Assembly (NCBI GenBank): GCA_965212055.1
Contig: OZ243041.1
Coordinates: 883,736-947,735 of the forward strand
Direction: 5' to 3'
DNA: 64,000 bases
DNA from: Fidelibacterota bacterium
Lineage (GTDB): Bacteria > Fidelibacterota > Marinisomatia > Marinisomatales > Marinisomataceae
The notes under the pieces were generated by a model. The model made no database searches. It was given only the letters and a program-made list of their open reading frames with translations, and had not been told where the DNA came from. The position numbers and the translations under genes are program-made. Positions within the stretch are counted from its first letter, which is position 1, and each line of letters starts with the position of its first letter. Of this stretch, positions 13,895 through 35,393 are shown one piece after another.

Positions 13895-16546
13895 TTATAA
13901 GTTACTCTTATCTATATTAACAACTAAATCACTTGCAATACAAGACCAATCGTAATCTTTTGCTATCTTACTTGATTGTTTTCCCATTTGTTTAATTAGA
14001 TCTTTATTATCAATCAAATTTTGTATAACACTTGTAAGTTCTCTATCGTTATTTCTTTCAAAGATAACACCATTAACCTGATCTTGTATACAATCTTTAG
14101 AACCAACATTATTAGAAACAATAACAGGTAATCCAGATGCCATAGCTTCTAAAACTACTAACCCAAATGATTCATGTATAGAAGGAAGAACAAAAAGTGA
14201 TGCTTGAGAATAATTTTGTAGTGGAGAACCAGATTCAACTAATACAGAAATACCTTTCTCCATTAATTTATCTTTATATTCATTAAATATATCTTCAAAA
14301 TATTGTGTTATATGACCATTAAATATAAGATTGATTTTATCAGAGGAGTTTATATTAAGCATTGCTTTGAGTAAAAGATGTACGCCTTTTTCCGGATTGA
14401 CATTCCCTACAAATAAAATATTAAACTCTTTATTATTTTTTCTCTTATCTAAACTATCATATTTTTGGAAATCTACACCTAGTGCGCAATTAATAAGTTT
14501 TTCTTTTTTTATATTATTAACTAAATAAGATTTTTCAACTAACGATGAAATACACCAAATTTTGTCTACTATTTTAATCTCTGCTAATTGTCTTTGTATT
14601 CTTTCAGCAAGTATGGGTTCATTTTTCAAACCTATTCTTTTATATTCTTTTTCTAAATAGTCTTTTTGTACATTTGGATGCATCCATTGAGAATGTAGAA
14701 TTGCTTTTCCACCACGTTTTTTCACTTCTTCAAATGAGTATAAAGACATTCCATTGCGTCCAATAATAATTGTATCACTATTAACTTCTATTATATTTTG
14801 TTGAATAAGATTTGTTAATTTTTTATCATAATAGATAAATTCGTCTAATAGTTGTTGATTAACACTGGTAGAAAATACTATTCTTTTAAATTTATTATAA
14901 CCTCTTATAGCAAATTCAAAAATCTTATTGGTACCAATATTATGATATTTACAAATTGATATATCAACTTCTCCCCTGCCAACCCATACAATATTATAAC
15001 CTAATTTTTTAAGATTTTTAACAAGCATAATGTCAGTACTTTTAGTTGCACCCAACAGATTAACATTATGTGAACCTGAATAAATGATAAAATTCATTTT
15101 CCTCTGATTTGAAGAATTGTTGGATAAAATATTAAGATTTGAAGAAGACTCAGAATTTTGATATTCATTTAAAATAATTTGAATATCTTTCAAATAAGTT
15201 ATATACAACATTATGAATAATACGATGAGCAATAATAGCTTATGAATCAAAGATAGTGTAAATAAATTGTTGGCTCCCCATAATAACAGACCCGTGAAGA
15301 AGAGTAGAAATAATATCTTTGTAAAATATGATAGATAACCTTTATGAATCAACTTCTTAACATAAACCTGGTAAGTGTAGAAAACTGATATATTCCCTAC
15401 TATAAAAACTGCAGCTGCAGCACCTGTAGTACCATATAAATCTGTTAAGAAATATAGCAAAGGTATTAATGCTAATAAATTTATTATTGCTACTTCCATA
15501 TCAACTTTTGTGTAACCATATGTATGTAATAATGGAGCAACATTGCTTGATACAGCTTTAATGAGTACAACCACAATAAATATTTGTAGTAAAAGTGATG
15601 ATGGGAGCCATTTTTCACCATATACAAAGAGTATAATTTCTTGAGAAAATAATAAAATTATAAATACTGGAATAAAATAAATAATTGCTGTTATTACCGT
15701 AATCATATCAAATAATTTAATTTGATCTTTAAGATTATCAAGCTTAGCAAGAGTTGGAAAAAGAACTTTATTAATGGCAGCTCGAATAAAAAATAAATAA
15801 TGACTGATTTGGAATGCCATCCAGTAAAATCCTAACGATTTTTCATCTATCAACAAATCCACAAGGTAATAATCAATATTGGTAGATATAAAAACAAGAA
15901 TTGTACTAATCAATAATGGATATCCAAAAACCATGGATTCTCTAAATATTTTATAATCTATACGGAGCTTGGGTCTATATGGCAAAATAAACCAGATTAA
16001 TACTGATTCTACAAGTGAAATAGTTACTTTCCACCACACTAAACTCCATATACCATAATTGTTATATGCCAATGTAATTCCAACAATGCCACCAACGACA
16101 TGAGATACCAACATTGGCATATTTGCTTTAACAAATGATAATTCTTTTTCAAAAAGTGCTTTTGGTTTCACAAGCGGGTTATACAACAATACTATGCAAA
16201 AGATTTGGATATATTCTGTAAGGTGAGATTTATCAATCCATGCTAAAATTGTTGGTAACAAGAAAAGAGAAAATAATATTAACAACAACCCCCATATTAA
16301 TTCAACGGTAAAAATTGTATCTAATATTTTATAAGGATTCTTTTTTTCTTTAATAAGAAATTTATCTCCATGAAGACTCCCAAAACTATTAAGAAACATC
16401 GCAACTAGGCTAATAAAAGCAAAAACACCAAATTCCGATGGCTCCAAAATTCTAGCAAGAGTAACTTGGACAGTAAAAAGTGTAATAACCTGCAATATGG
16501 TTATTACACTTACTGTGATTCCTCCAGAAATCAGTCTTTTTAACAC
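13895..16546 (-). CDS. fusion protein: Wzx-type polysaccharide flippase (MOP superfamily) + family 4 glycosyltransferase
   Basis: 883 aa in a single uninterrupted frame. Residues 1 to about 470 are polytopic (12 or more hydrophobic helices, typical Wzx). A Ser/Asn linker follows. Residues 484-883 (from the Met at 15097) are a GT-B domain with EKGVHLLLKAM and PSIHESFGLVVLEAMASGLPVIVSN. Confidence 0.75.
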   Translation of the reverse strand: MLKRLISGGITVSVITILQVITLFTVQVTLARILEPSEFGVFAFISLVAMFLNSFGSLHGDKFLIKEKKNPYKILDTIFTVELIWGLLLILFSLFLLPTILAWIDKSHLTEYIQIFCIVLLYNPLVKPKALFEKELSFVKANMPMLVSHVVGGIVGITLAYNNYGIWSLVWWKVTISLVESVLIWFILPYRPKLRIDYKIFRESMVFGYPLLISTILVFISTNIDYYLVDLLIDEKSLGFYWMAFQISHYLFFIRAAINKVLFPTLAKLDNLKDQIKLFDMITVITAIIYFIPVFIILLFSQEIILFVYGEKWLPSSLLLQIFIVVVLIKAVSSNVAPLLHTYGYTKVDMEVAIINLLALIPLLYFLTDLYGTTGAAAAVFIVGNISVFYTYQVYVKKLIHKGYLSYFTKILFLLFFTGLLLWGANNLFTLSLIHKLLLLIVLFIMLYITYLKDIQIILNEYQNSESSSNLNILSNNSSNQRKMNFIIYSGSHNVNLLGATKSTDIMLVKNLKKLGYNIVWVGRGEVDISICKYHNIGTNKIFEFAIRGYNKFKRIVFSTSVNQQLLDEFIYYDKKLTNLIQQNIIEVNSDTIIIGRNGMSLYSFEEVKKRGGKAILHSQWMHPNVQKDYLEKEYKRIGLKNEPILAERIQRQLAEIKIVDKIWCISSLVEKSYLVNNIKKEKLINCALGVDFQKYDSLDKRKNNKEFNILFVGNVNPEKGVHLLLKAMLNINSSDKINLIFNGHITQYFEDIFNEYKDKLMEKGISVLVESGSPLQNYSQASLFVLPSIHESFGLVVLEAMASGLPVIVSNNVGSKDCIQDQVNGVIFERNNDRELTSVIQNLIDNKDLIKQMGKQSSKIAKDYDWSCIASDLVVNIDKSNL

Positions 16547-16606: not shown

Positions 16607-17320
16607 TTATAACACAAAATAATATAATTTTTTATAATAATCTAAAGCTTCATCATAAATAGAATGGTACTCTTTTGGTACATTATTAGATCTATTTTCA
16701 AATTTTTCAAATTTGGTAGTATTAATAATATTGTTATACCAATGTTTCCACCAAATACCATCAGTAGAATATGGACCTTTCTTCCAATTAAGCATTTTTT
16801 TATCAAACTTAATATTCAAATGATTGCACCAATGATTTAAGATACTTTCAGGATTGTTTAATAAAGTAGAAACATCAATAACTAAAATATTTTTTTTGAA
16901 TTTTTGCAAATATTTAATTAATTCATATTGCTGAGGATAACCAAGTTCACTGATATGATTTAATTTGTTTTTTTTAATATAAGAGCTAATCACATCTTTT
17001 GGGTGTCTTATCAAAAATGAATTATGGAAATCTTTTATCCATTCAATATTTTCTAAGTTGATTAAATGGTGGGCCATATGTTTTTGATACCATATATTTT
17101 TTGATTGAGGAATTTCTTTAGTAATAGCATTGACTACTGAATCATATGAATTTGGATAATAATTAATAATTTCTTCATGCATTGGATGTTTTAGTTTTTT
17201 TTCTTTTAAATAATATGCATAAAAAGGCTCATCAGTCACAAAGGTATCGTCTCTTGATGACCAAGAACGCATTAATGCAGTAGAAATATTCCTAGGACCT
17301 GACCAACAAGCAATTTTCAT
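16607..17320 (-). CDS. sulfotransferase-like P-loop protein
   Basis: 237 aa. N-terminal WSGPRNISTALMR resembles the 5'-phosphosulfate-binding loop, and LIRHPKDVISSY resembles the R-x-P-x-D-x3-S 3'-phosphate-binding motif of PAPS sulfotransferases. An APS kinase lies in the same gene run. Confidence 0.5.
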   Translation of the reverse strand: MKIACWSGPRNISTALMRSWSSRDDTFVTDEPFYAYYLKEKKLKHPMHEEIINYYPNSYDSVVNAITKEIPQSKNIWYQKHMAHHLINLENIEWIKDFHNSFLIRHPKDVISSYIKKNKLNHISELGYPQQYELIKYLQKFKKNILVIDVSTLLNNPESILNHWCNHLNIKFDKKMLNWKKGPYSTDGIWWKHWYNNIINTTKFEKFENRSNNVPKEYHSIYDEALDYYKKLYYFVL

Positions 17321-18317: not shown

Positions 18318-18659
18318 TTATTTTCTAAACAATTTTTTTCTTATTTTTGTAGCAGAAATTTTTCCTATACTATCTGGTGGAATATGTTCAATGATATCAT
18401 AACCTACCCCACGCCCATAATTTACAGATTCAATATCAGGTATAATAATAACTTTGATTCTATTACTTTTAACCAAATCTTGAAGTTTATTTTCAATATT
18501 GTTTTTTACATCTTCAGGATCATAAGGATTTTTATCATTTGTACTTACTTCTCTTATACAAATAAGAACATTTTTCCCTTCATTTAGTCGTTGATCAATT
18601 AACCAACGATGTCCATCATGCCACGGTTGCCATCTTCCTATAAACATTGAGTATTTCAT
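18318..18659 (-). CDS. minimal HxGH-type nucleotidylyltransferase (cytidylyl/adenylyltransferase superfamily)
   Basis: 113 aa carrying both superfamily motifs, GRWQPWHDGH and ISATKIRKK. The start overlaps the 3' end of the APS kinase gene. Substrate unknown. Confidence 0.6.
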   Translation of the reverse strand: MKYSMFIGRWQPWHDGHRWLIDQRLNEGKNVLICIREVSTNDKNPYDPEDVKNNIENKLQDLVKSNRIKVIIIPDIESVNYGRGVGYDIIEHIPPDSIGKISATKIRKKLFRK

Positions 18660-19077
18660 TTGTACATTCCTCTATATCTAATTTGCCTGTATCAATTGAT
18701 AAATGTTTTTCTAAAGGGATTTCATAGTCTTTAGCAAAAAAATTTTCTCTTCCTCTTATTTCTGTAGTATGCAAATAAACTTCCAGAAAAGGAAATTCAC
18801 TCTTTAATTCATTTCTAAGAAATCTATATGGGGCAACAATAGATACTACACAAAGATATCCCTTACTGCTTAAAAAACGAATAATTGATATCGCAGTAGA
18901 AATATTTTTAATTCTCCCTTCTTTAGAATAATCTTTATTTCTATTAATATTTCTTAAATCATCACCATCTAAATTAATTATTTTAAGATATTCATCATCT
19001 TGTTTTAAAGATTTAATAATCGAATTAGCTAGGGTTGTTTTCCCGCTACCCGGCTGACCTGTAAGCCAAATAATCAT
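18616..19077 (-). CDS. cysC: adenylylsulfate (APS) kinase, short form
   Basis: 153 aa. IIWLTGQPGSGKTTLA P-loop, LDGDDLRN and SKEGRIKNI...VVSIVAPYRFLR match CysC blocks. Confidence 0.82.
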   Translation of the reverse strand: MIIWLTGQPGSGKTTLANSIIKSLKQDDEYLKIINLDGDDLRNINRNKDYSKEGRIKNISTAISIIRFLSSKGYLCVVSIVAPYRFLRNELKSEFPFLEVYLHTTEIRGRENFFAKDYEIPLEKHLSIDTGKLDIEECTNEILNVYRKMATVA

Positions 19078-25217: not shown

Positions 25218-26444
25218 TTAAAATATATCCATAAAAGACGGAGTAGAACCACCATTTCGTACCCAGTCATAAAAAGCTAGATAATCTTTGCCTAATACAT
25301 CCCAAGAAAAATAATCTTTAATATATGTTCTTCCAAGTTGACCCATATTTTTTAGATCATTTTTATTCAAACTATTTGCTGCTAATATTGCTGAGTATAT
25401 ATCATCTTGATTTAAACTAACAACCCATCCATAATTATTCTTTTTTACAACATGCCAAGGTGTTTCTTCAGATACAATGACTGGTAAACCATAAGACATA
25501 GCTTCTGCAATCACCAATCCAAAATTTTCTGATTGAGAAGGGATAATAAATACATCATTACTAAGATATTTTTCTTGTTTTTTTAATCCTGATACTTTAT
25601 CAGTAAAAGATATATTTTTTAAACCAAATTTTTTGATTAAATCTTGTAAAAATTTATAGTAACTAATGTCTTCATAATAACCACATATTTCTAATGTACA
25701 ATTTTTGTTTTCTAATTCAATTCTAGACCATGTTTTAATAAGAAGATCAAGGCCTTTGATTGGATGTATTCTTCCTAAATATAAAAATTTAGTTTTTTCT
25801 CTAGTAAAATTTGTCTTTTTCTCTTTGGGAATATCAATACCTTCTGGTATAACAGCAATTGGTTGTTTATAACCTAAAGACCTAATTTCATCTTTTTCTT
25901 TGAGAGACGTAGCATGAAATGCATCACAATTTGATAACATTTTATTTTGATTAGAAAATATATTAAAAAGAATTTTTTTATACCTTGATACACTTAAAGC
26001 CTCTTTTGCAAAACTTCCTTTTGGAGAATTAACTATTTTTATATTCTTTCTTTTCTTTACTGATAAAGAATAGATATGTGGCATTCTCCATAACCCATGA
26101 CTATGAATTATATCACCATCAGTTGTTAATTTTTTTAAACCTGATTTAAATTTTTGTGAAGATAAAATAGATTTTAGCATAAAATCAATTCTATATTCAT
26201 GAACTTTAAATGAGGGCTTAAATACCAAATTACTTTTTCCTGCTGTATGGAGATGAGTATCAATATTGTTTGATACAGCTTCACATAAAGCTGGCACAGC
26301 ATAAGAGTGACCACTCAGTTGTCTTTTAACAATAAATGGAGCAATGTGATGTACAGAAAATGAATCTATCATGTTCAATTTATGGTTGGGGTGGAAATCC
26401 GTTTCCATATAAAATAATTTTCGATATAAAATCAATGTTTGCAT
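25218..26444 (-). CDS. family 4 glycosyltransferase (GT-B)
   Basis: PSQSENFGLVIAEAMSYGLPVIVSE (E-x7-E region). The start is uncertain. Internal Met codons at 26408 or 26372 would reduce or remove the 65-nt overlap with the upstream gene. Confidence 0.8.
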   Translation of the reverse strand: MQTLILYRKLFYMETDFHPNHKLNMIDSFSVHHIAPFIVKRQLSGHSYAVPALCEAVSNNIDTHLHTAGKSNLVFKPSFKVHEYRIDFMLKSILSSQKFKSGLKKLTTDGDIIHSHGLWRMPHIYSLSVKKRKNIKIVNSPKGSFAKEALSVSRYKKILFNIFSNQNKMLSNCDAFHATSLKEKDEIRSLGYKQPIAVIPEGIDIPKEKKTNFTREKTKFLYLGRIHPIKGLDLLIKTWSRIELENKNCTLEICGYYEDISYYKFLQDLIKKFGLKNISFTDKVSGLKKQEKYLSNDVFIIPSQSENFGLVIAEAMSYGLPVIVSEETPWHVVKKNNYGWVVSLNQDDIYSAILAANSLNKNDLKNMGQLGRTYIKDYFSWDVLGKDYLAFYDWVRNGGSTPSFMDIF

Positions 26445-27387
26445 ATAAAAAATAAAGACTAGTGATAAGAACGCCCAAGTTTAAACCTGCACGATAAGGC
26501 AAACAATAATACAAGCAAAATATATAACCAATCATATTCATTCTATCTTCTCCAACAAAATATAGAGCTATAAATAGCGGTAAAAAATAAATTAGAGTCT
26601 CTAATCTGTCTTTTGTATAATATAAAGCTATAAGAAGAAATATTGTCATCCTTAAAAAATCAAATATACTTCGATCGCCACCATATGCTGTTATTTTAAA
26701 AAAAAGGTAAGGTAGTCCAGAAATTTGAGTGGAGTTTATAGCAAAGAATACAAACACTATCATTGGTAACACAAATAATAATGACCGTTTAAATTGTAAT
26801 TTAAATAATAAAGGCTTGACTTCATTAATGAATAACTGAAGTGCTCTACCTAAACATAAGATTAGTATCTGCAAATGAGAAAAAATAGCTAAACCAAAGA
26901 AAAAGAAAGAAAGAACATATTTTTTTCTAAAAAGAAAAAATAACAAGAAAAAGATAAAACCAATTTTTAACCTCTCTCCTGTAAAAAATAATACATATAA
27001 ATAAAAATTTGTAAGAATAAAAAAAGATGTTACTAGAAAATTAACTTTAAGATTATCAAAAACTTTTATTAAAAGCCCAGCAAGAAATGTATTACACATA
27101 GACAGAAAAAAGATTCTATCTATTCCTAGATTGCTTGCTACCCAAACAAAAATAAAATGAACAAATTCTACTGTGGTAATAATATAATTATAGAGTTGAT
27201 ATGCCCTAGCAATATCAAGGTCAGCTACTCCGTTATATATTGTTCTATATCCATTGTTATCTCCCCCTACATATAAATTCCCTAGAATCAATGAAATAAT
27301 AAACACAAAAAAAAGCAGTGTTATTCTCAAAAAAGTATTTTTATTAAAAGATGGTAGATTTAAAAAAATTTTAGTGTTTATCATCAT
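26380..27387 (-). CDS. polytopic membrane protein, EpsG/Wzy-like repeat-unit polymerase candidate
   Basis: 335 aa with about 10 hydrophobic helices and no soluble domain. It is the only polymerase-like membrane protein in a locus that has a Wzx flippase. The family was not rigorously recognised. Confidence 0.45.
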   Translation of the reverse strand: MMINTKIFLNLPSFNKNTFLRITLLFFVFIISLILGNLYVGGDNNGYRTIYNGVADLDIARAYQLYNYIITTVEFVHFIFVWVASNLGIDRIFFLSMCNTFLAGLLIKVFDNLKVNFLVTSFFILTNFYLYVLFFTGERLKIGFIFFLLFFLFRKKYVLSFFFFGLAIFSHLQILILCLGRALQLFINEVKPLLFKLQFKRSLLFVLPMIVFVFFAINSTQISGLPYLFFKITAYGGDRSIFDFLRMTIFLLIALYYTKDRLETLIYFLPLFIALYFVGEDRMNMIGYIFCLYYCLPYRAGLNLGVLITSLYFLYANIDFISKIILYGNGFPPQP

Positions 27388-28604
27388 AAAGAAAATGCCT
27401 TCAAAAGATTTGATATGTGTAAATTTCTATAAGATTGGGGACGATGAGAATCTGCAAGAAGGAAAAACCCTGAACTAATTTTATCTTTTTTAAGATATCC
27501 ATGCATACCAGCTTTTAATTTACTGTCATTGTGAAAAAAATCTGGACTTACTTGAACACCTTTTTTAGCCCACCAAACAATATCAGCAATATCTTTCACA
27601 GGCGGTAATCCTTCGTTTTCACAATCCTGATTATTAAGAAAATATCCTTTATCTTTTAATTCTTTATTAGAAAATAGTTTCTGATGAAAATTCTTCAATT
27701 TTTCTTTATTATCTAATTTCCACCATATTCTTAACATTGTTGAATCTAAAAAATAATAAAAATCTCTCCCTAATTTAAGATTCAAATTCTTTGTAATAGA
27801 TTCAATGATATTTTTGATATTGATACCATGATTAACATGTTCCATACCATGATCTCCCAAAAAAGAAATATCACACTTTTCATGATGGTATTCCATACAT
27901 GTATGATAGAAATTTTTTAGTTTTATATCTATATCTTCAAGCCCTTTAATTAATTCTTGTGAATGTGGCCCAAATTTATGGCCAAGTACATCTGCTGTAC
28001 TTATATATACTGGAATCAATGTCTGCTTATAATCAGAAAGCTTATTTATAAGGGTTTTAAGTCGTGAAGAATCAGTACCAAAAGAAGCACTAGATAATGA
28101 TGTAAAATATTCCCAGTTAATTGTATATCCTGCATGAATATGTTCATATAATAAACCTGATTTAATCTGTTTCGAATATTCTTCAAAATCAATTGAATCT
28201 TCTGTAAGAATAACTTTGTCTAAAATATTTAAAGGAATTCTCTGTGGATACATACTAGGGGACGATTTATTGAGAGACACTTGCCACAAAAAACGTCTGA
28301 TAATTTTTTGAAAAAATTGATTTTTTTCAAAAAAACTAAGTACAGGTATTATCCAATTTGGAAGCCATGAATATGGTCGAATATTATTCTTAGATTCAGT
28401 ATCAATCGTAATAGCATTAACAAAACCAGTTTCAGAAGGTTTTAAGCTAAAAAAAATCTCCGAACGTTCACAAAAACCACTCGATATCTCTAAATTTTTT
28501 ATATAAATACCATCATGAATTTTAGATGATAACCAAGGCATATATTTAACATGATCTGATCTAAGAGCATCAAGAACTATAAGGTAATGATTTTGTAAGT
28601 TCAT
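27384..28604 (-). CDS. alkaline-phosphatase-fold metalloenzyme (type I phosphodiesterase/nucleotide pyrophosphatase/phosphotransferase family)
   Basis: 406 aa. LIVLDALRSDH, ADVLGHKFGPHSQE and LGDHGMEH correspond to the metal-ligand blocks of the PF01663-type family. No signal peptide. Confidence 0.6.
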   Translation of the reverse strand: MNLQNHYLIVLDALRSDHVKYMPWLSSKIHDGIYIKNLEISSGFCERSEIFFSLKPSETGFVNAITIDTESKNNIRPYSWLPNWIIPVLSFFEKNQFFQKIIRRFLWQVSLNKSSPSMYPQRIPLNILDKVILTEDSIDFEEYSKQIKSGLLYEHIHAGYTINWEYFTSLSSASFGTDSSRLKTLINKLSDYKQTLIPVYISTADVLGHKFGPHSQELIKGLEDIDIKLKNFYHTCMEYHHEKCDISFLGDHGMEHVNHGINIKNIIESITKNLNLKLGRDFYYFLDSTMLRIWWKLDNKEKLKNFHQKLFSNKELKDKGYFLNNQDCENEGLPPVKDIADIVWWAKKGVQVSPDFFHNDSKLKAGMHGYLKKDKISSGFFLLADSHRPQSYRNLHISNLLKAFSL

Positions 28605-28605
28605 A

Positions 28606-29385
28606 TTAAAAATAATATTGATTTAAAAATTTATTTTTATATTCTTTCTGTGAGAAATCTTTTAAATAATCCTCAATAATATCAACTTTTTTTTGATTAT
28701 TAATACCGCTTACACATTTATATTCACAGAAAGGAAATCCAATAACATTCTTGCTTTTTGTATTGCAAAATGGAATAAATTTTACAAAATCAATTTCTTT
28801 TTTATTCTGCAATTTTTTATTAGCTATAAAATCAGATAATAATGGATATACCTCGCTATCTAAGATAAAACAAAGACAATCTTGTTCAGCCCAACCAGAA
28901 TATGGTTTACCTTCATTCGAATGAAACACCTCAGAATATTTTCCTTCACTATCTCTCAAAAATCCAACATAAGGATTTTTTTTATAACGTGTTGGCATTG
29001 CAATGAGTGGATTAAATTTTTCATATAATATGGTAGAAAAAAATATATAACTAGAAGGAATAAGTGCTAAATCACCCCACAATAAAATGGTATCATACTC
29101 TAAAGCTAAATCATTTTTGATTGCATCCAAACATACCGCTGTACCTTGTATTTGTTCAGGATGGAGTTCAATTAGATTGATTTTTTTATTTAAACCTTCT
29201 ATTTGTTCAAAATAATGCTTATCGAGAGAATTAATTACTATATTGATGGAAACAATATTTGATATTGCTTTTTCAATCACATTTAACAAGTTAATAATAA
29301 TAGATTTTTGACCATTTGGATAGTCAATTTTAAGGAGAGGTTTTGGATAATTGAGATTCATTCTTTCTCCCTTTCCTGCAGCCAT
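28606..29385 (-). CDS. sugar/phospho-compound nucleotidyltransferase (GlmU-N/MobA/CofC-like fold)
   Basis: 259 aa from the only ATG. MAAGKGERM is the signature xAAGxGxR loop, with GTAVCL and WGDLALI. The conserved beta-strand QIVI lies upstream of the ATG, so the true start may be non-canonical. Confidence 0.65.
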   Translation of the reverse strand: MAAGKGERMNLNYPKPLLKIDYPNGQKSIIINLLNVIEKAISNIVSINIVINSLDKHYFEQIEGLNKKINLIELHPEQIQGTAVCLDAIKNDLALEYDTILLWGDLALIPSSYIFFSTILYEKFNPLIAMPTRYKKNPYVGFLRDSEGKYSEVFHSNEGKPYSGWAEQDCLCFILDSEVYPLLSDFIANKKLQNKKEIDFVKFIPFCNTKSKNVIGFPFCEYKCVSGINNQKKVDIIEDYLKDFSQKEYKNKFLNQYYF

Positions 29386-29525
29386 AATTACTATTTGATA
29401 TTGTTTTTTATTGATTGAAGTATTTTCTAAATAGTAATTAAATAATTCTTTTCTATACTGTGAAAGTTCAAACTTTTTAGAAGAAAAAGGATTAAAGATT
29501 AAAGTACTATCTCCTGATTTTTTAA

Positions 29526-30284
29526 TTACAATATCTCCTTTAATGATTCCACAGAAAATGTAGGAGAAGGAGAATTTTTAACTAAATCAGATTTTGAAGA
29601 AATAAGTACAGATTGGCATTTAAGATTCTTACTGAGTTCTATGTCAGTCCAAGGATTGTCTCCTATCACTATCAATTTTTCATCTTTTTTTACTTTTATC
29701 ATTTCTCTGCTGAGATTAGGTTTTCCAAATTCTTTTGATAGCTTTTTTTTCTGTAAAACACCTGATAAATTCAATAAACCGTCCAAAATTAAGGTAACAG
29801 TAAAATTAAATGGTGGTTCGGGTGAAATTCTATCAGGATTTCCTAATAAAATATCTGCATCTGTTTTTATAATTAAGTTTAATGCTGATTCTGTTCTTTT
29901 AATCCATTCACTATCAACCAAAGAAGTAAAAATAATTGCATCAATATCTTCTTCTGAGATATCATTCACTATATTGCCTACAAAAGGTTTGATTTTATTG
30001 GCAACATTTTCTTGTCCGTAATGAAAAATAGTTTTGTAAGATTTTTTTTCTAAAAATTTTAATAATAAATCTAATGATGTAATAACATCGGGTATTGGTA
30101 CATTAAAAATGTTAAATAATTCCTCTTTTAATTCTAAGCCTGTTTTAGATCCAATATTTGAAAAAATAATTATTTTTTGATAATAATTTTTTAAGAATTC
30201 TTTTGAACCATTGAGAGGTTCTTTTTTATTAGAATATAATGTTCCACTAACATCTAATAAAATTTTATCAAATTTGGATAACAT
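29526..30284 (-). CDS. HAD-superfamily hydrolase, subfamily IIA-like
   Basis: 252 aa. Motif I variant ILLDVSGTL, FSNIGSK, and motif IV VIGDNPWTDIELSKN (the GDxxxTDI of NagD-type HAD-IIA). Confidence 0.6.
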   Translation of the reverse strand: MLSKFDKILLDVSGTLYSNKKEPLNGSKEFLKNYYQKIIIFSNIGSKTGLELKEELFNIFNVPIPDVITSLDLLLKFLEKKSYKTIFHYGQENVANKIKPFVGNIVNDISEEDIDAIIFTSLVDSEWIKRTESALNLIIKTDADILLGNPDRISPEPPFNFTVTLILDGLLNLSGVLQKKKLSKEFGKPNLSREMIKVKKDEKLIVIGDNPWTDIELSKNLKCQSVLISSKSDLVKNSPSPTFSVESLKEIL

Positions 30285-30290
30285 CTTACA

Positions 30291-31556
30291 TTATTTATCA
30301 TTTACTATTCTTAAAATAGTTTTTAAGACATTTTTTCCATTATGAGCAGAAGGATTTAATGGATCAGAAAAATTACCTTTCACTATTTTTAACCAAGGAT
30401 ATTTATTCATAATTACATTTTCATCAAAATTAATCGATTTTGATTCTTTAGATTCTGAGGTTGCATCATCTATAATTAGGTGAGTAAGTAAATCTTTTTT
30501 ATTAATACTCTTATTACTTGATCTATTTAAATATTTATATAAATCTTTTACTAGATCTGAAACATATAAAAAATTATTGGTTTCTTTCTTCAAGTTTGCA
30601 ATCATCACTTTTGGATTCTCATTTTGTTTAATAAGATTTGCTACCCCTTTTGTTTCAAGGCTTGGAAGGATACTAGAATATGGAGTTCCAGAACCATAAA
30701 CAATGATATCGCTGTTAAGTATTTTTTCTTTAATATCTTCATTATAAATAGGAATACTCCTCAATGACTCAAGAAAACTAATTTTATCATCTATTTCTAT
30801 TGAAGATAATTTTCTAATTTGATTCATTGTGATAGGATTTGTCATCTGATAGATATCTTTTATGCTATCTGTAGTGCGAGTTAATACCACAGATGCTTCA
30901 TTAGGTAAAAGGGTACCATTTTTCAGTAACCCACTTAGAAATCTAACAGAATTTGTATTAGAATATATTGCAATTTTACTATTCAGATTACAAAATTTAG
31001 AAAAAGCATTAGTAGCTTTATTAAAGTCAAGATTATTTTCTACCAATAGAGCTCCAAATAAAATATTACCAATTTTGAAATCTTCTATATCAATAATTTC
31101 ATCTCTGTTTTGATAAAAATAATTGAAAAAAATAATAAATTTTTTCAAAATTTGTTTTCTTGTTTTATCTGGAATTTGTGAAAGTGCAGATAAATATTTA
31201 GGTAAAGAATTTTTATATAGCATTTTGTGCAGATTACGATATAATAATAACCTTTCTTCAAAATTATCAACCATCGGAAATCTGGCTTCTAATGCGTTTA
31301 TTAGTTTTTCATTTGGAGAAAGAGAAAGGATTGCTTTTAAAAAATCACTTATTCCATGAGCTTTATAATGAAATAATCTTCTAATCTCTCCTGTAGATGC
31401 ACCATCATCTAAACCATTAATTATTACTGAAAGTTCATTGATGTCGTTCATTTGTTTTTTCATTGCAAAAAACAAATTTTTATTCCCTCTTCCTCCTGAA
31501 AATATTATAACTTTTGGTTTATATTTATTTTTCATTCTTTTTTCCCCATTTAGCAA
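30291..31556 (-). CDS. CofD/YvcK-family (UPF0052) protein, extended form
   Basis: 421 aa. PKVIIFSGGRGNKNL, INGLDDGASTGEIRR and SDIIVYGSGTPYSSILPSL align by eye to B. subtilis YvcK blocks PKVVIIGGGTGLSVL, VTVADDGGSSGRLRN and ADVIVIGPGSLYTSVLPNL. The likely start is the Met at 31535. Confidence 0.7.
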   Translation of the reverse strand: MLNGEKRMKNKYKPKVIIFSGGRGNKNLFFAMKKQMNDINELSVIINGLDDGASTGEIRRLFHYKAHGISDFLKAILSLSPNEKLINALEARFPMVDNFEERLLLYRNLHKMLYKNSLPKYLSALSQIPDKTRKQILKKFIIFFNYFYQNRDEIIDIEDFKIGNILFGALLVENNLDFNKATNAFSKFCNLNSKIAIYSNTNSVRFLSGLLKNGTLLPNEASVVLTRTTDSIKDIYQMTNPITMNQIRKLSSIEIDDKISFLESLRSIPIYNEDIKEKILNSDIIVYGSGTPYSSILPSLETKGVANLIKQNENPKVMIANLKKETNNFLYVSDLVKDLYKYLNRSSNKSINKKDLLTHLIIDDATSESKESKSINFDENVIMNKYPWLKIVKGNFSDPLNPSAHNGKNVLKTILRIVNDK

Positions 31557-32427
31557 TAATTATTTTAATAATTTGCGCTCCAGACGGATAAATCCTTCCT
31601 AAATACCATTTTTTTAGAGGTTTTCTCTCATTTTTAATAATTAATGGTAATTTAAATATTCCTTCAATCATTCCTAAAAAATAATAGTGTAATGATAATG
31701 TTTTCAAAGAAAAAATAAAATTAATTGTAAAATGAAAAATTACTTCTCTTATTGCTGGTAATAATGGATAATGTTTACATATTAACCATAAAACATTCCT
31801 AGTATTATAGTAATAAAACTTAGAAGACAATCTTGTTGTTGGCGATTCTTTGTGATATGCAACAATATCGCTAAAATGTTGAATTTTATATCCATAGTCC
31901 AATGCTCTTATACAAACATCTTCTTCGCTAGCATAGATAAAATAATTTTTCGGTCTTAAACCAACATTGTCAAATAATTCTTTTTTTAAACCAACAGCAC
32001 ATCCAGTAAACCTATTATGTTTGGGCCAGTTTTTGGGTTCATTTTGAATTTTTTTTGAGAAAAAATTGAAAATACGAGGATCCACAATCCCAAGAGATGG
32101 GTCATTATTAAATTTATGAACAATTTTATTAATTCCATTATCTTCAAAAAATGCATCACTATCAAGAAAAACTAAAATAGGGCCAGTAGAATTAACAATA
32201 CCTACATTAAATCCTTCTTCACATCCCACATTTGACGGTAAACATATTAATTTATAATTTGGATATAGTTGTCTTATTTCTTCAACAGTACCATCAGATG
32301 ATCCATTATCAACTATAATAACTTCTAAATTAGAGTAAGTTTGTCTTTGAAGAGATTCCAAAGTTTCCAGGATATCATCTTTTCGATTCCAAGTTACAAT
32401 TACTACAGATACTAATGGGTTATTCAT
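31525..32427 (-). CDS. family 2 glycosyltransferase
   Basis: 300 aa. VSVVIVTWNRKD, EVIIVDNGSSDGT and FLDSDAF (DxD) are GT-A/GT2 hallmarks. Confidence 0.88.
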   Translation of the reverse strand: MNNPLVSVVIVTWNRKDDILETLESLQRQTYSNLEVIIVDNGSSDGTVEEIRQLYPNYKLICLPSNVGCEEGFNVGIVNSTGPILVFLDSDAFFEDNGINKIVHKFNNDPSLGIVDPRIFNFFSKKIQNEPKNWPKHNRFTGCAVGLKKELFDNVGLRPKNYFIYASEEDVCIRALDYGYKIQHFSDIVAYHKESPTTRLSSKFYYYNTRNVLWLICKHYPLLPAIREVIFHFTINFIFSLKTLSLHYYFLGMIEGIFKLPLIIKNERKPLKKWYLGRIYPSGAQIIKIIIAKWGKKNEK

Positions 32428-32453
32428 TATAAAATTTTCAAATATATTAACAT

Positions 32454-33599
32454 TTATAAATCATAAAAAATAGAATTTCCTCTTTCTTTCCAAATTTTAC
32501 AATTAGGATCATTGTCAATGCAAAATTGTCTTGCTAACTCCCATGAATAATTATTGTTTCCATTGTTATTAAACTGATTTAGTTCATTATTAATCGTTTT
32601 TAATAATTTTTCATCAATATTATTCTCAGATTTTGCTAATAAAACTAATAATTCAATAACTGTTAAATTTATTCTATCTTTATATATTTTTTTGTTCATC
32701 AACCATCCAAAAATTTTTCGAACAATATTTTCATAATCATTTCTATAATCTTTTATAATAGTATCCCAATCATTGTATTGTTTATTATAATATTGAGATA
32801 AAAATAACATTAAGACCTTCATATGCTCTTGCTTGTTTAAATACCATAAAGAATATAAATCTTCCTTAATATCTAGGAATGGAGAAACTTTAAATTGAGT
32901 AGCTTTCTGCACTAATTCACACCATACTTTATTATTGAAAGTTTGTTTAAAAAAAATTTCTCTTTCAATATAACTGCTATGATACTTGCCATGTAATATT
33001 AGCAATGCTGATGACCATCCTAAAATTGATTTAGATATTTGCTGATAAATCCAAAATTTTTCATTATCTGTTATTTGAGAATCTTTCTCACCAGGATATG
33101 CTTGAAGAATAGATATAAGATAAAGCAAAAGAGGAGTTCTGCCTTCACGCAAACTTAATTTACTTGAATCAATAAATGGAATAGATTCTAATATCTTTTT
33201 ATTGCCATAGAATACATATGATGCATATTTCAAATCATAGTTGGCCATAGTAGGTTTTAAATATTTTAGTTTTTTTGCTTGAATTAATTCTATATCAACT
33301 TGTCTTATCTGTATTCTTTTTAAAATTGAATTTCTTAAATCTTCTAGATCAGCGATTTCAGAATTGTCTTTTGTGATAATATATATATCATAATCATTAA
33401 TGGGTTGAATATCATTATCTACAATTAAAACACTTCCTTCTCCACGCCCAAATCCTCCAGCTAAAACAATAGATTCAATATTGGTAAATTCATTTAAGAT
33501 AATCTGAGTAATTAAATCCAAATCAGAAGAAATTCTATGATATATATCTTGACTATCATGAATTGTAAATTTTGTACTATTATTGATTCTTTTATTCAT
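32454..33599 (-). CDS. Pol-beta-fold nucleotidyltransferase-like protein with helical C-terminal domain (function unknown)
   Basis: 381 aa. LAGGFGRGEGSVLIVDNDIQPINDYDIYII fits the hG[GS]...DxD minimal NTase pattern. The remainder is helical with no recognised family. Confidence 0.4.
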   Translation of the reverse strand: MNKRINNSTKFTIHDSQDIYHRISSDLDLITQIILNEFTNIESIVLAGGFGRGEGSVLIVDNDIQPINDYDIYIITKDNSEIADLEDLRNSILKRIQIRQVDIELIQAKKLKYLKPTMANYDLKYASYVFYGNKKILESIPFIDSSKLSLREGRTPLLLYLISILQAYPGEKDSQITDNEKFWIYQQISKSILGWSSALLILHGKYHSSYIEREIFFKQTFNNKVWCELVQKATQFKVSPFLDIKEDLYSLWYLNKQEHMKVLMLFLSQYYNKQYNDWDTIIKDYRNDYENIVRKIFGWLMNKKIYKDRINLTVIELLVLLAKSENNIDEKLLKTINNELNQFNNNGNNNYSWELARQFCIDNDPNCKIWKERGNSIFYDL

Positions 33600-34547: not shown

Positions 34548-35393
34548 TTGAAAATAGGCATTCTTGGACAAGGGTATGTTGGAAGTGCAATTAAAATCGG
34601 ATTTGAAAAGCACTATAAAGATATTAATACATTTGATAAGTATAGTAAGTCTAAGAGCACTGTTTCTAATCTAGAAGAACTAACAAAGTCTTCAGAAATT
34701 ATATTTGTTTGTCTTCCTACACCAATGAAAGAAAATGGTGAATGTGATATTGGAATTGTTAAAAAAGAAATTGAAAAAATAAATAAATATTCTACCCACA
34801 AAAAAATTGTTGTTATTAAATCAACTGTACCTCCTGACACCACAAAAAAAATCAACAACAGCAACAAGAATATAGATGTTATTTTTAATCCAGAATTTTT
34901 AACTGAACGAAATTTTATTGAGGATTTCAAAAAACAAAATCGAATTGTATTAGGTGGTAATCAAAAACCAGTTGATATTTTACAACAGGTCTATGGCAAA
35001 GTTTTTCCTAATATAACAATTGTTAAAACTGATTCAACGACAGCTGAAATGATTAAATATTTTACAAACACATTTCTAGCTACTAAAGTATCTTTTTCGA
35101 ATGAAATGAAAATAATTTGTGATGAGATTGATGTTGACTATGATAAAGTAGTTGAATATTCCTTGTATGATCAAAGAATAGGAAAATCACACTTAGGGGT
35201 TCCTGGCCCTGATGGGAAGCTTGGGTTTGGAGGAAGCTGTTTTCCAAAAGATATTAATGCATTAATATATTTTGCTAAACAAAAAGGAATAGATTTAGAT
35301 GTATTAAAAAGTGTTTGGGAAACAAATTTAAAAGTTAGGCCTGAAAAAGACTGGGAAAAATTAAAAGGCAGAGCAGTTATTAAAAAAGACTAA
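34548..35393 (+). CDS. UDP-glucose/GDP-mannose dehydrogenase family protein, short form lacking the C-terminal domain
   Basis: 281 aa with a TTG start. KIGILGQGYVGS, FNPEFLTERN and the catalytic-Cys block GFGGSCFPKDI. The protein ends 47 aa after that block, whereas typical members continue for about 100 more aa. Confidence 0.7.
   Translation: MKIGILGQGYVGSAIKIGFEKHYKDINTFDKYSKSKSTVSNLEELTKSSEIIFVCLPTPMKENGECDIGIVKKEIEKINKYSTHKKIVVIKSTVPPDTTKKINNSNKNIDVIFNPEFLTERNFIEDFKKQNRIVLGGNQKPVDILQQVYGKVFPNITIVKTDSTTAEMIKYFTNTFLATKVSFSNEMKIICDEIDVDYDKVVEYSLYDQRIGKSHLGVPGPDGKLGFGGSCFPKDINALIYFAKQKGIDLDVLKSVWETNLKVRPEKDWEKLKGRAVIKKD

What the first reader, a model, noticed from the sequence alone, without database searches (positions are those of the whole stretch)
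27384..33599. Unorthodox CofD/YvcK-centred gene run inside the glycan locus: candidate undescribed phosphodiester-decoration pathway
Six consecutive co-directional genes have overlaps or gaps of at most about 30 nt, apart from a 140-nt stretch that is itself in-frame. Together they encode a combination I do not recognise from any canonical Wzx/Wzy locus. The genes are an alkaline-phosphatase-fold enzyme (LDALRSD, DVLGHKFGPHS, GDHGMEH), a GlmU-N/MobA/CofC-fold NTP transferase (AAGKGERM) and a HAD-IIA-like protein. They continue with a 421-aa CofD/YvcK-family protein, a GT2 and a Pol-beta NTase-like protein. The CofD/YvcK call rests on three blocks that align by eye with B. subtilis YvcK. Established chemistry: CofD moves a phospho-alkyl group from a nucleoside-diphospho donor, made by the NTP transferase CofC, onto a hydroxyl and releases NMP. 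An NTP transferase plus a CofD-family transferase next to glycosyltransferases, a polymerase and a flippase therefore suggests a specific pathway. It would activate a phosphorylated sugar or acid and install it as a phosphodiester substituent on the repeat unit. That would be functionally analogous to LicC/LicD or TarI/TarL but use an unrelated transferase. The substrate and the roles of the HAD, AlkP-fold and Pol-beta-like proteins are pure inference.
Basis: partly seen in the sequence, partly recalled or inferred. Interest (0 to 1): 0.78.

Follow-up and report, generated by a model that had tools for sequence, protein, structure and literature searches.

The report
CofD-like glycan-modifying six-gene module
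Six tightly packed genes in a marine bacterium's surface-sugar locus form a strongly conserved, uncharacterised enzyme set built around a relative of the F420 enzyme CofD, and it probably attaches a phosphate-linked group to the sugar chain in a way not yet described.

Summary
Six co-directional minus-strand genes at 27384-33599 encode an NPP/AlkP-fold enzyme, a GlmU-like NTP transferase, a HAD-IIA protein, a CofD/YvcK-superfamily protein (PF01933, E 8e-25), a GT2 and an aminoglycoside-NTase-like protein. They lie in a ~33-kb Wzx/Wzy glycan locus of an uncultured marine bacterium, probably Marinimicrobia.

The set is not a chance neighbourhood. Among 38 related metagenome loci (38-99% identity), 25 carry all six genes and 2 lack only the HAD. 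The other 11 are incomplete and reach, or come within about 0.8 kb of, a contig end.

It is two recurring modules sharing one GT2. Module B is [HAD]-NTP transferase-CofD-like-GT2. In distant relatives these parts are fused into single proteins, in one case all four domains. Module A is NTase plus AlkP, and it occurs without CofD in other glycan loci, once as an AlkP-GT2 fusion.

The chemistry is still inferred. The NTP transferase resembles GlmU, not CofC, so an NDP-sugar donor and sugar-1-phosphate transfer is the more likely version. I found no paper describing this system. Verdict: a real, undescribed, widespread enzyme system.

The parts
27384..28604 (-). NPP/alkaline-phosphatase-fold enzyme (406 aa), part of module A. 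All six bimetal ligands are kept, but the canonical Thr nucleophile position is Gly within an almost invariant G-F-C-E-R motif.
   Evidence: PF01663 E 4e-14. The family profile matches ENPP4, ENPP6, ENPP1 and Xanthomonas NPP, with E down to 5e-18. D12, D205, H209, D251, H252 and H368 are invariant and C45 is nearly invariant. Nucleophile alignment.
28606..29526 (-). GlmU-N-like NTP transferase, part of module B. It is 259 aa from the ATG at 29385. More probably it is 306 aa from an ATT at 29526-29524 and includes a conserved N-terminal NPF extension.
   Evidence: The family profile matches the GlmU uridylyltransferase domain over its full length, E 2e-19. A50, G51, R55, P61, K62, G128, W150, D152 and D216 are invariant.
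29526..30284 (-). HAD-IIA (NagD-like) protein (252 aa), an optional part of module B. The nucleophile Asp11, the Lys and the GDxxxTD motif are kept. Asp+2 is replaced by Ser, or by Tyr or Phe in homologues.
   Evidence: TIGR01460 E 1e-14 at 54.9 bits, below the cut-off of 100; PF13344 and PF13242. Alignment to NagD-like 1pw5. Homologue alignment. Missing in the L001/L036 lineage.
30291..31535 (-). CofD/YvcK-superfamily protein and centre of module B. It is 414 aa from the ATG at 31535; the ORF extends to a TTG at 31556. It carries extra sequence, largely helical, between the blocks that align with YvcK.
   Evidence: PF01933 E 8e-25. AF2 model pLDDT 90. Foldseek: YvcK-like 2hzb, 2o2z, 2ppv and 2q7x at E 1e-16, then CofD 3c3d and FbiA 6uvx at about E 1e-7. 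47 invariant residues across 29 homologues, including D50, D51 and D71.
31525..32427 (-). GT2 glycosyltransferase (300 aa). It always lies immediately 5' of the CofD-like gene and is shared by both modules.
   Evidence: PF00535 E 1e-29. Collinear in every related locus. GT2 is fused to CofD-like in 36 of 70 long relatives and to AlkP in L055.
32454..33599 (-). Aminoglycoside-nucleotidyltransferase-like NTase with a helical C-terminal domain (381 aa), part of module A.
   Evidence: No Pfam hit for this protein itself. 14 of 35 family members weakly match PF18765 and 10 match PF01909. AF2 model pLDDT 94. Foldseek top hits are AadA, ANT(4'), ANT(9) and HalB. G48, R52, E54, G55, D69 and D71 are invariant.
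26380..27387 (-). EpsG-like Wzy polymerase, overlapping the module by 4 nt. This is flanking context that recurs beside the module in related loci.
   Evidence: PF14897 E 3e-6, below the cut-off. An EpsG-like gene, a GT4 and FnlA/RmlD-like/2-epimerase genes follow the module in L001, L004 and L009; L013 has the GT4 and the FnlA/2-epimerase/RmlD-like genes but no EpsG call.

Best explanation
The six genes are a dedicated glycan-tailoring unit made of two recurring enzyme modules that share one GT2.

Module B is HAD, a GlmU-like NTP transferase, the CofD-like protein and the GT2. I propose the following steps:
1. The NTP transferase condenses an NTP with a phosphorylated precursor, most likely a sugar-1-phosphate, to give NDP-X. 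The HAD may supply or trim that precursor.
2. The CofD-like enzyme uses CofD/FbiA-type chemistry. A hydroxyl or phosphate on the growing glycan or lipid-linked sugar attacks the beta-phosphate of NDP-X. NMP leaves and X stays attached through a phosphodiester.
3. The GT2 adds the acceptor sugar or extends from it.

Module A, the aminoglycoside-NTase-like protein plus the NPP-like enzyme, performs a second nucleotide-dependent step on the same sugar. Plausibly the NTase nucleotidylates a hydroxyl and the NPP-like enzyme cleaves or transfers the phosphodiester.

Shown here: the folds, intact catalytic motifs, strict co-inheritance, and domain fusions that prove a functional link. Inferred: the donor, the acceptor, the direction of each step and the phosphodiester product.
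For: 1. Fold and motifs. CofD-like: PF01933 at 88 bits, model pLDDT 90, PDB matches YvcK then CofD/FbiA. D50/D51 and D71 are invariant. By motif comparison they correspond to the FbiA metal ligands D45/D57 (PMC7253369) and to Listeria GlmR D40/D41, whose mutation (together with N198) cuts activity about 100-fold (PMC10128056).
2. The NTP transferase keeps the GxGxR, PK and WGD signature, aligned to GlmU R18, K25 and D105.
3. Co-inheritance. Of 38 loci, 25 carry all six genes and 2 lack only the HAD. The other 11 are incomplete and reach, or come within about 0.8 kb of, a contig end.
4. Distant CofD-like relatives (25-30% identity) still sit beside an orthologous NTP transferase and a GT2.
5. 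Fusions. P0276 is HAD-NTP transferase-CofD-GT2. P0289 and P0301 are NTP transferase-CofD-GT2. P0338 and P0367 are CofD-NTP transferase-HAD. P0275 is CofD-GT2. 36 of 70 long relatives carry a GT2 domain. At least 799 90%-identity clusters score E<=1e-20 with the CofD-GT2 fusion P0275, and all 120 listed carry both domains; named ones come from several phyla.
6. In cultured Bacteriovorax sp. BSW11_IV, a HAD gene overlaps the start of the NTP transferase-CofD-GT2 fusion inside a polysaccharide locus.
7. Module A. In 5 of 5 distant NTase loci examined, a PF01663 gene lies beside the NTase or one gene away. In one locus it is an AlkP-GT2 fusion.
Against: There is no biochemical or structural-chemistry data for any member.
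- The closest structural relatives, YvcK/GlmR, are debated. They have been described both as UDP-GlcNAc-binding regulators and as uridyltransferases, not as phosphotransferases acting on glycans.
- The window's HAD lacks Asp+2, and the AlkP-fold protein lacks the canonical nucleophile. Both may therefore work differently from their families, or be non-catalytic.
- The window's GT2 may not be orthologous to the DPM1-like GT2 fused in distant relatives.
- No kinase for the precursor lies inside the module.
- No glycan structure is known for any host.
Confidence: 0.45

Rival explanations
1. The CofD-like protein is a non-catalytic or regulatory UDP-sugar sensor, like B. subtilis GlmR/YvcK. It adjusts the activity of the adjacent or fused GT2, or precursor supply, according to the nucleotide-sugar pool. 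The NTP transferase and HAD simply make the GT2's donor.
For: The closest solved structures are YvcK-like proteins. B. subtilis GlmR binds UDP-GlcNAc and controls GlmS (PMC7525490). A sensor domain fused to the enzyme it controls would also explain the CofD-GT2 fusions.
Against: - 47 invariant residues, many of them polar, across homologues down to 35% identity suggest an active site rather than only a binding site.
- The DD motif needed for activity in Listeria GlmR is invariant here.
- The protein scores 65.9 bits against the YvcK cut-off of 196.
- No yvcJ, whiA or glmS context is present.
- Fusion to supply enzymes (NTP transferase, HAD) looks like a metabolic assembly line.
Confidence: 0.2
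2. Module B makes an unusual nucleotide-activated precursor rather than decorating the glycan. The CofD-like protein acts as a second nucleotidyl or phosphoryl transferase, as reported for Listeria GlmR (sugar-1-P + UTP -> UDP-sugar), or remodels an NDP-sugar. The GT2 then transfers the product in the ordinary way.
For: Listeria, S. aureus and B. subtilis GlmR were reported to have uridyltransferase activity (PMC10128056). The NTP transferase is GlmU-like. A paper on a Mycoplasma fermentans region noted a GT2 synthase, a CofD-family gene and an NDP nucleotidyltransferase together, and speculated about nucleotide-sugar synthesis (PMC11658790).
Against: Two enzymes for the same nucleotidyl transfer in one strictly conserved operon would be redundant. 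CofD/FbiA, the only mechanistically resolved members of the superfamily, transfer the phospho-moiety and release NMP. Listeria GlmR N198 aligns with Ser in this family.
Confidence: 0.2
3. The CofD-like enzyme is a new kind of phosphoglycosyl transferase. It moves sugar-1-phosphate from a UDP-sugar onto undecaprenyl phosphate or a lipid head group, and the product is then extended by the DPM1/GtrB-like GT2. This would be glycolipid or lipid-linked primer synthesis rather than decoration of a finished repeat unit.
For: The GT2 fused to distant relatives has the DPM1/GtrB-like consensus VP..NE, D.GS.D, V.GSR. Distant loci pair the fusion with LPG_synthase_TM, DedA/VTT, large unannotated proteins (no Pfam match) and a second small GT2. 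The reaction has the same leaving-group logic as CofD.
Against: The window already has a Bac_transf initiating transferase at 6703-7263. The protein has no Pfam match other than CofD; membrane topology was not tested. In the window clade the module sits among repeat-unit GT and Wzy genes.
Confidence: 0.1

Closest known systems
YvcK/GlmR (UPF0052; TIGR01826; PDB 2hzb, 2o2z, 2ppv, 2q7x)
   Same: These are the best structural matches (E 1e-16, TM about 0.8 normalised to the target). They share the FSGGxG and DDGxSxG motifs and the GxGT..SS..P block. The DD pair required for Listeria GlmR activity is invariant here.
   Different: The score is 65.9 bits against a curated cut-off of 196. About 90 extra residues lie between the aligned blocks. 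Listeria GlmR N198 aligns with Ser. There is no yvcJ/whiA context. The partners are an NTP transferase, GT2 and HAD inside glycan loci, and in relatives the protein is fused to them.
CofD/FbiA with CofC/FbiD (F420 biosynthesis)
   Same: Same superfamily (PF01933). The logic is the same two steps: an NTP transferase makes an NDP-activated phospho-compound, and the CofD-type enzyme passes the phospho-moiety to a hydroxyl with release of NMP. An acidic pair sits where FbiA binds its metal.
   Different: TIGR01819 scores 16.6 bits against a cut-off of 257 and the structural match is weaker, TM 0.5-0.65. The partner NTP transferase is GlmU-like, not CofC-like. No F420 genes are present in the window. 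The context is a Wzx/Wzy glycan locus.
LicC/LicD, TarI/TarL and Stealth (hexose-1-phosphate transferase) systems
   Same: The proposed outcome matches: a nucleotide-activated phospho-substituent or sugar-1-phosphate installed as a phosphodiester on a surface glycan. The gene pair is likewise embedded in the glycan locus.
   Different: The transferase fold is unrelated. No LicD, TagF or Stealth domain was reported for any window gene scanned. The NTP transferase matches LicC and TarI far less well than GlmU. The function is unproven.
GAK-system CofD-like protein (TIGR04357)
   Same: It is the best-scoring NCBIfam model, at 79.9 bits, and covers most of the protein.
   Different: The score is far below the cut-off of 340. 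The ATP-grasp and XXXCH partners that I recall define that system (from memory, not checked here) were not seen among the window genes scanned.
Nucleotide pyrophosphatase/phosphodiesterases (ENPP4/6/1, Xanthomonas NPP) and aminoglycoside nucleotidyltransferases (AadA, ANT(4'), ANT(9))
   Same: These are the best PDB relatives of the two module A proteins. The NPP bimetal ligand set and the NTase G-x-x-x-R-x-E-G...D-x-D motif are conserved.
   Different: The NPP nucleophile Thr is Gly in this clade. Both proteins lack Pfam matches to secretion or membrane domains. They are paired with each other and with a GT2 in glycan loci, a pairing for which my six CofD-centred literature searches returned no description. 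None of those searches targeted this pair.

Membership tests
CofD superfamily (Pfam PF01933) | Profile score above the gathering threshold and the CofD/YvcK fold | tested here: met
   88 bits against a cut-off of 30, E 8e-25. AF2 model pLDDT 90. The only significant PDB matches are YvcK-like proteins, CofD and FbiA.
[quoted passage not shown] | Equivalog-level score | tested here: not met
   16.6 bits against a cut-off of 257.45.
[quoted passage not shown] | Two acidic metal ligands (FbiA D45, D57) | tested here: inconclusive
   D50/D51 and D71 are invariant. Their correspondence to D45/D57 rests on motif comparison by eye, not on a superposition.
[quoted passage not shown] | CofC/FbiD-type partner and F420 pathway genes | tested here: not met
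   The partner's family profile matches GlmU, with no CofC, FbiD or MobA hit. No CofE, CofG or CofH is among the window genes scanned.
YvcK/GlmR (TIGR01826) | Subfamily-level score | tested here: not met
   65.9 bits against a cut-off of 196.
YvcK/GlmR (TIGR01826) | Residues needed for reported uridyltransferase activity (Listeria D40, D41, N198) | tested here: inconclusive
   The DD pair is conserved as D50/D51. By the phmmer alignment to 2o2z, N198 aligns with S299.
YvcK/GlmR (TIGR01826) | yvcJ-glmR-whiA operon context | tested here: not met
   The neighbours are a GT2, a HAD and an NTP transferase.
GAK-system CofD-like (TIGR04357) | Score above the curated cut-off | tested here: not met
   79.9 bits against a cut-off of 340.
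GlmU-type sugar-1-phosphate nucleotidylyltransferase domain | Full-length similarity and the catalytic signature (GxGxR, Lys25, Asp105 equivalents) | tested here: met
   Profile E 2e-19 over query positions 32-290 against GlmU 4-251. R55, K62 and D152 align with H. influenzae GlmU R18, K25 and D105.
GlmU (bifunctional equivalog) | Equivalog score and a C-terminal acetyltransferase domain | tested here: not met
   28.4 bits against a cut-off of 366.85. The protein ends after the nucleotidyltransferase domain.
HAD-IIA phosphatase (TIGR01460) | Motif I DxD (nucleophile plus Asp+2 acid/base), motif III Lys, motif IV acidic pair | tested here: not met
   The nucleophile D11, the Lys and the GDxxxTD motif are present. 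Asp+2 is Ser, Ser, Tyr and Phe in the four homologues aligned. The score is 54.9 bits against a cut-off of 100.15.
NPP / alkaline-phosphatase superfamily (PF01663) | Six bimetal ligands | tested here: met
   D12, D205, H209, D251, H252 and H368 are invariant in 17 sequences. PF01663 scores 53 bits against a cut-off of 23.
NPP / alkaline-phosphatase superfamily (PF01663) | Thr/Ser nucleophile in the T-F-P-N-H position | tested here: not met
   The position aligns with G43 of G-F-C-E-R. It is Ser in the distant L012, L054 and L056 homologues and Ala in L055. The aligned segment scores low, and no structure model was made.
Pol-beta-type nucleotidyltransferase (PF18765/PF01909) | NTase fold with a G[GS]...DxD-type motif | tested here: met
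   AF2 model pLDDT 94, with AadA/ANT as the top PDB hits. G48, R52, E54, G55, D69 and D71 are invariant. The window protein itself is below the Pfam cut-off (12.4 bits against 26.9), and 14 of 35 relatives match only weakly.
LicC/LicD- or TarI/TarL-type phospho-substituent systems | A LicD- or TagF-family transferase partnered with the cytidylyltransferase | tested here: not met
   No LicD or Glyphos_transf domain appears in any scanned window gene. The NTase model does not retrieve FKRP or LicD-like structures among the top 50 hits.
Any phosphodiester-decoration system | A phosphodiester-linked substituent in the glycan product | not testable with these tools
   This needs 31P-NMR or MS of the polysaccharide. 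The host is uncultured.

The most novel reading that the evidence does not exclude
CofD-superfamily proteins of this subfamily are a previously unrecognised, phylum-spanning class of glycan or glycolipid phosphotransferases. They take an NDP-activated donor made by a dedicated GlmU-like NTP transferase and form a phosphodiester or glycosyl-phosphate bond, working in an assembly line with a GT2 and a HAD enzyme. The subfamily comprises at least 278 50%-identity clusters, and its most common long form is a fusion to GT2. A second new pair, an ANT-like NTase plus a nucleophile-less NPP, carries out another uncharacterised nucleotide-dependent glycan modification.
Probability: 0.4. Interest if true: 0.82.

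Novelty: new variant of a known kind. Interest (0 to 1): 0.68.

Why it matters
Phosphodiester-linked substituents and glycosyl-phosphate bonds shape charge, antigenicity, phage recognition and carbon/phosphorus content of bacterial surface glycans. The known enzymes that make them (LicD, TagF/TarL, Stealth, LtaS/EptA-type) do not explain all cases.

The only mechanistically resolved function of the CofD superfamily is in F420 synthesis, and YvcK/GlmR is still debated. A CofD-type glycan phosphotransferase would give the superfamily a second clear function and help interpret YvcK/GlmR. It would also annotate hundreds of 'CofD family', 'gluconeogenesis factor' and 'hypothetical' genes in marine and soil bacteria.

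Cultured carriers are named among the homologues (Bacteriovorax sp. BSW11_IV; Synoicihabitans lomoniglobus). The multi-domain fusions provide ready-made constructs. The hypothesis is therefore directly testable.

Tried and rejected
2. I considered that the NTP transferase is the missing heptose-1-phosphate nucleotidyltransferase for the SIS/PfkB/His_Phos_1 genes at 8587-10800. I rejected this. It travels with CofD-like in loci where no heptose genes were called within the fetched flanks. The window also has its own CTP_transf_like ORF at 18318-18659.
3. The NTP transferase is not CofC-like. There is no CofC, FbiD or MobA hit.
4. The genome-contig scan found only one locus, identical to L002 and labelled as a Gammaproteobacteria MAG, because the search patterns were narrow. 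It therefore says little about taxonomic spread.
5. The C-terminal domain of the P0104/P0106 fusions gave no Pfam or PDB hit on its own. It was interpreted only later, through the consensus of 70 relatives, as a GT2 that is degenerate in those two proteins.
7. Six literature searches linking CofD with capsule, O-antigen, EPS, glycolipid, glycosyltransferase or nucleotidyltransferase found nothing apart from one passing remark on Mycoplasma fermentans.

Full report
**What is there**

The window is low-GC, about 25-30% across the locus. It belongs to a 969,550-bp contig of an uncultured marine bacterium. Its DnaG clusters with a protein named Candidatus Neomarinimicrobiota, and most relatives come from Tara and other ocean metagenomes.

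From about 4883 to 38437 the window holds one large surface-glycan locus. Its genes are:
- a PglF-like dehydratase, a Bac_transf initiating transferase, and GT4s;
- SIS, PfkB and His_Phos_1 genes;
- Wzi, a Wzx-GT4 fusion, and a sulfotransferase;
- an APS-kinase-like protein and a small CTP_transf_like ORF;
- a Wzz-like protein, Wza, and FnlA/RmlD-like/2-epimerase genes;
- a GT4, an EpsG-like Wzy, the six genes of the finding, and SDRs plus a DegT aminotransferase.

**Check of the observation**

Profile searches give the following:
- PF01663 for 27384-28604.
- A weak IspD/GlmU-N signal for 28606-29385.
- HAD-IIA for 29526-30284.
- PF01933 (E 8e-25, 88 bits, cut-off 30) for 30291-31556.
- GT2 for 31525-32427.
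- Nothing for 32454-33599.

Two corrections to gene boundaries:
- The 140-nt 'gap' is coding. It encodes an N-terminal extension with an NPF motif that every homologue of the NTP transferase has. In the window's own clade (window, L014-L016, L018) the frame stays open for 48 codons without any ATG, GTG or TTG. An AAGGAG sequence sits 8 nt before an ATT at 29526-29524.
- Public gene calls start the CofD-like gene at the ATG at 31535, giving 414 aa.

**The individual proteins**

CofD-like protein.
- An AF2 model built on 29 homologues has pLDDT 90.
- Its only significant PDB matches are YvcK-like proteins (E 1e-16, TM about 0.8 on the target), then CofD and FbiA (about E 1e-7, TM 0.5-0.65).
- It fails the curated cut-offs of all named subfamilies: GAK CofD-like 79.9 against 340, YvcK 65.9 against 196, CofD 16.6 against 257.
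- 47 residues are invariant down to 35% identity, among them D50, D51 and D71.
- By motif comparison these match the FbiA metal ligands D45/D57 (PMC7253369) and the D40/D41 pair needed for the reported uridyltransferase activity of Listeria GlmR (PMC10128056).

NTP transferase.
- The family profile matches the GlmU uridylyltransferase domain over its whole length (E 2e-19).
- IspD, LicC and TarI match only the N-terminal third, and there is no CofC, FbiD or MobA hit.
- R55, K62 and D152 align with GlmU R18, K25 and D105.

381-aa protein.
- It models at pLDDT 94 as an NTase domain plus a helical domain.
- It is closest to the aminoglycoside nucleotidyltransferases AadA, ANT(4') and ANT(9).
- It has an invariant G-x-x-x-R-x-E-G...D-x-D motif.

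AlkP-fold protein.
- It keeps all six NPP metal ligands and its profile matches ENPP4, ENPP6 and ENPP1.
- The position of the NPP nucleophile Thr is Gly, inside a nearly invariant G-F-C-E-R motif.

HAD.
- It keeps the nucleophile Asp, the Lys and the GDxxxTD motif.
- Asp+2 is never Asp; it is Ser, Ser, Tyr and Phe in the four homologues aligned.

**Is the gene set more than chance?**

I built HMMs for the six families and scanned six-frame ORFs of all fetched loci. Among 38 loci of the CofD-like clade (38-99% identity, not exact duplicates):
- 13 have the window's order, NTase-GT2-CofD-HAD-NTP transferase-AlkP.
- 12 have AlkP moved to the 5' end.
- 2 lack only the HAD although they have ample flanks.
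- The other 11 are incomplete. Each reaches, or comes within about 0.8 kb of, a contig end.

The NTase-GT2-CofD-[HAD]-NTP transferase string is never broken. The clade itself is small, about seven full-length 50%-identity clusters. Sources name its members as Marinimicrobia, Flavobacteriales and a Gammaproteobacteria MAG.

**Two modules**

Module B is centred on CofD.
- Distant CofD-like relatives (25-30% identity; L007, L008, L053) still sit beside an orthologous NTP transferase and a GT2, but without the NTase or AlkP.
- A profile search of 1.84 billion representatives finds 278 clusters at E<=1e-30. Of the best 142, 90 are at least 590 aa long.
- Pfam scans show why they are long:
  - P0276 is HAD_2-NTP_transf_3-CofD-GT2.
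  - P0289 and P0301 are NTP_transf_3-CofD-GT2.
  - P0325 is NTP_transf_3-CofD.
  - P0338 and P0367 are CofD-NTP transferase-HAD.
  - P0391 is CofD-HAD.
  - P0275 is CofD-GT2.
- 36 of 70 long representatives have a Pfam GT2 domain.
- At least 799 90%-identity clusters score E<=1e-20 with the CofD-GT2 fusion P0275, and all 120 listed carry both domains. Named hits come from Brocadiaceae, Bdellovibrionota, Acidobacteriota, Elusimicrobia, Magnetococcales and Synoicihabitans lomoniglobus.
- In cultured Bacteriovorax sp. BSW11_IV, a HAD gene overlaps the start of an NTP transferase-CofD-GT2 fusion within a polysaccharide locus.

These Rosetta-stone fusions establish that HAD, NTP transferase, CofD-like and GT2 act in one pathway.

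Module A is the NTase plus AlkP.
- All five distant NTase homologues I looked up have a PF01663 gene beside them or one gene away, in glycan loci without CofD.
- In L055 the partner is a 781-aa AlkP-GT2 fusion in a Wzm/Wzt locus.

The window's six-gene run is therefore modules A and B joined around one GT2.

**Mechanism**

What is shown: the folds, intact catalytic signatures in the NTP transferase, CofD-like, NTase and AlkP metal sites, obligate co-inheritance, and domain fusion.

What is inferred from the CofC/CofD precedent:
- The NTP transferase makes NDP-X.
- The CofD-like enzyme lets an acceptor oxygen attack the beta-phosphate, releasing NMP and leaving X-phosphate attached.

Because the NTP transferase is GlmU-like and the CofD-like protein is YvcK-like, and YvcK proteins bind UDP-sugars, I favour X being a sugar. 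The reaction would then be a sugar-1-phosphate transfer analogous to Stealth enzymes. The HAD would supply or trim a phosphorylated intermediate. Three different HAD subtypes are recruited in different lineages, which fits a generic phosphatase or mutase role. The window's version, lacking Asp+2, may be impaired or altered. The chemistry of module A is open.

Rivals:
- The CofD-like protein is a UDP-sugar sensor for the GT2.
- It acts in nucleotide-sugar precursor synthesis.
- It is a new phosphoglycosyl transferase acting on lipid phosphate.

**Comparison and novelty**

The system works like LicC/LicD, TarI/TarL or Stealth systems. It is not a member of any of them. It is also not a member of CofD, YvcK or GAK-CofD at subfamily level.

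Six full-text searches found no description. The only trace is a remark that a Clostridia-derived region in Mycoplasma fermentans carries a GT2 synthase, CofD-family pseudogenes and a nucleotidyltransferase (PMC11658790).

I rate it a new variant of a known kind, namely a nucleotide-activated glycan tailoring pathway built on an unrelated transferase superfamily. The existence and coherence of the module are near certain. The phosphodiester chemistry has a probability of about 0.45.

Noticed in passing
window 29386-29526 (minus strand): The NTP-transferase gene seems to start at a non-canonical ATT (29526-29524) that shares one base with the HAD stop codon, 8 nt after an AAGGAG sequence. Five related contigs (76-99% identity) also lack an ATG/GTG/TTG before the conserved NPF extension, whereas more distant homologues have an ATG or GTG there. 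The extension shows more non-synonymous than synonymous changes (7:3 and 10:4) but no stops or indels.
   Followed up: partly
L055:7046-9391; also L012, L054, L056 and the P0199 locus: The ANT-like NTase family is linked to a PF01663 AlkP-fold gene in glycan loci of unrelated bacteria that have no CofD. In a groundwater contig the partner is an AlkP-GT2 fusion in a Wzm/Wzt (ABC transporter) locus with a Wzt_C domain and a B12/radical-SAM gene. This looks like a separate uncharacterised glycan-modifying pair.
   Followed up: partly
window 27384-28604; alignments A3: The NPP-like enzyme keeps all six metal ligands, but Gly sits at the Thr nucleophile position and a nearly invariant Cys lies two residues later (G-F-C-E-R). 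Distant homologues have Ser (GFSS) or Ala there. This points to an unusual nucleophile or a non-covalent mechanism.
   Followed up: partly
P0275-P0529; L057 (Bacteriovorax sp. BSW11_IV AUNE01000045.1); L007, L008: CofD-like-GT2 fusions (about 650-700 aa) and NTP transferase-CofD-GT2 fusions (about 930 aa) occur in several phyla. Sources annotate them only as 'CofD family', 'YvcK family' or 'glycosyltransferase'. Their loci repeatedly also contain a second small GT2, a radical-SAM protein and large unannotated proteins. A methyltransferase (L007, L057) and an LPG_synthase_TM protein (L007, L008) each occur in two of the three loci.
   Followed up: partly
window 7331-7984 and 7941-8570 (plus strand): A GT4 glycosyltransferase is split into two overlapping ORFs, with the Glyco_transf_4 N-domain in one and the Glycos_transf_1 C-domain in the other. 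This suggests a frameshift, a pseudogene or an assembly error.
   Followed up: no
window 8587-10800 (plus strand) and 18318-18659 (minus strand): The SIS (GmhA-like), PfkB kinase and His_Phos_1 phosphatase genes look like a nucleotide-heptose pathway in which a histidine phosphatase replaces the usual HAD-type GmhB. A small CTP_transf_like ORF 8 kb away could be its nucleotidyltransferase.
   Followed up: no
window 16607-17320 and 18616-19077 (minus strand): A Sulfotransfer_5 sulfotransferase and an APS-kinase-like P-loop protein lie inside the locus, which suggests the glycan is also sulfated.
   Followed up: no
window 13895-16546 (minus strand): An 883-aa fusion of a Wzx-type flippase (Polysacc_synt_3) with a C-terminal GT4 glycosyltransferase domain.
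   Followed up: no
window 34548-35393 (plus strand); L001:4963-5826; L004:3584-4414: A short (276-287 aa) UDP-glucose/GDP-mannose dehydrogenase-like protein, with N-terminal and central domain hits but no C-terminal domain hit, recurs near the module in three otherwise different loci. It is probably a conserved short form rather than a fragment.
   Followed up: no
window 2355-4876; L001:918-3845: The glycan locus lies next to metK and ahcY both in the window and in L001, whose contig is identical to one from a MAG labelled Gammaproteobacteria (L011). The shared synteny raises the possibility that the bin label is wrong, or that the whole region was transferred.
   Followed up: no
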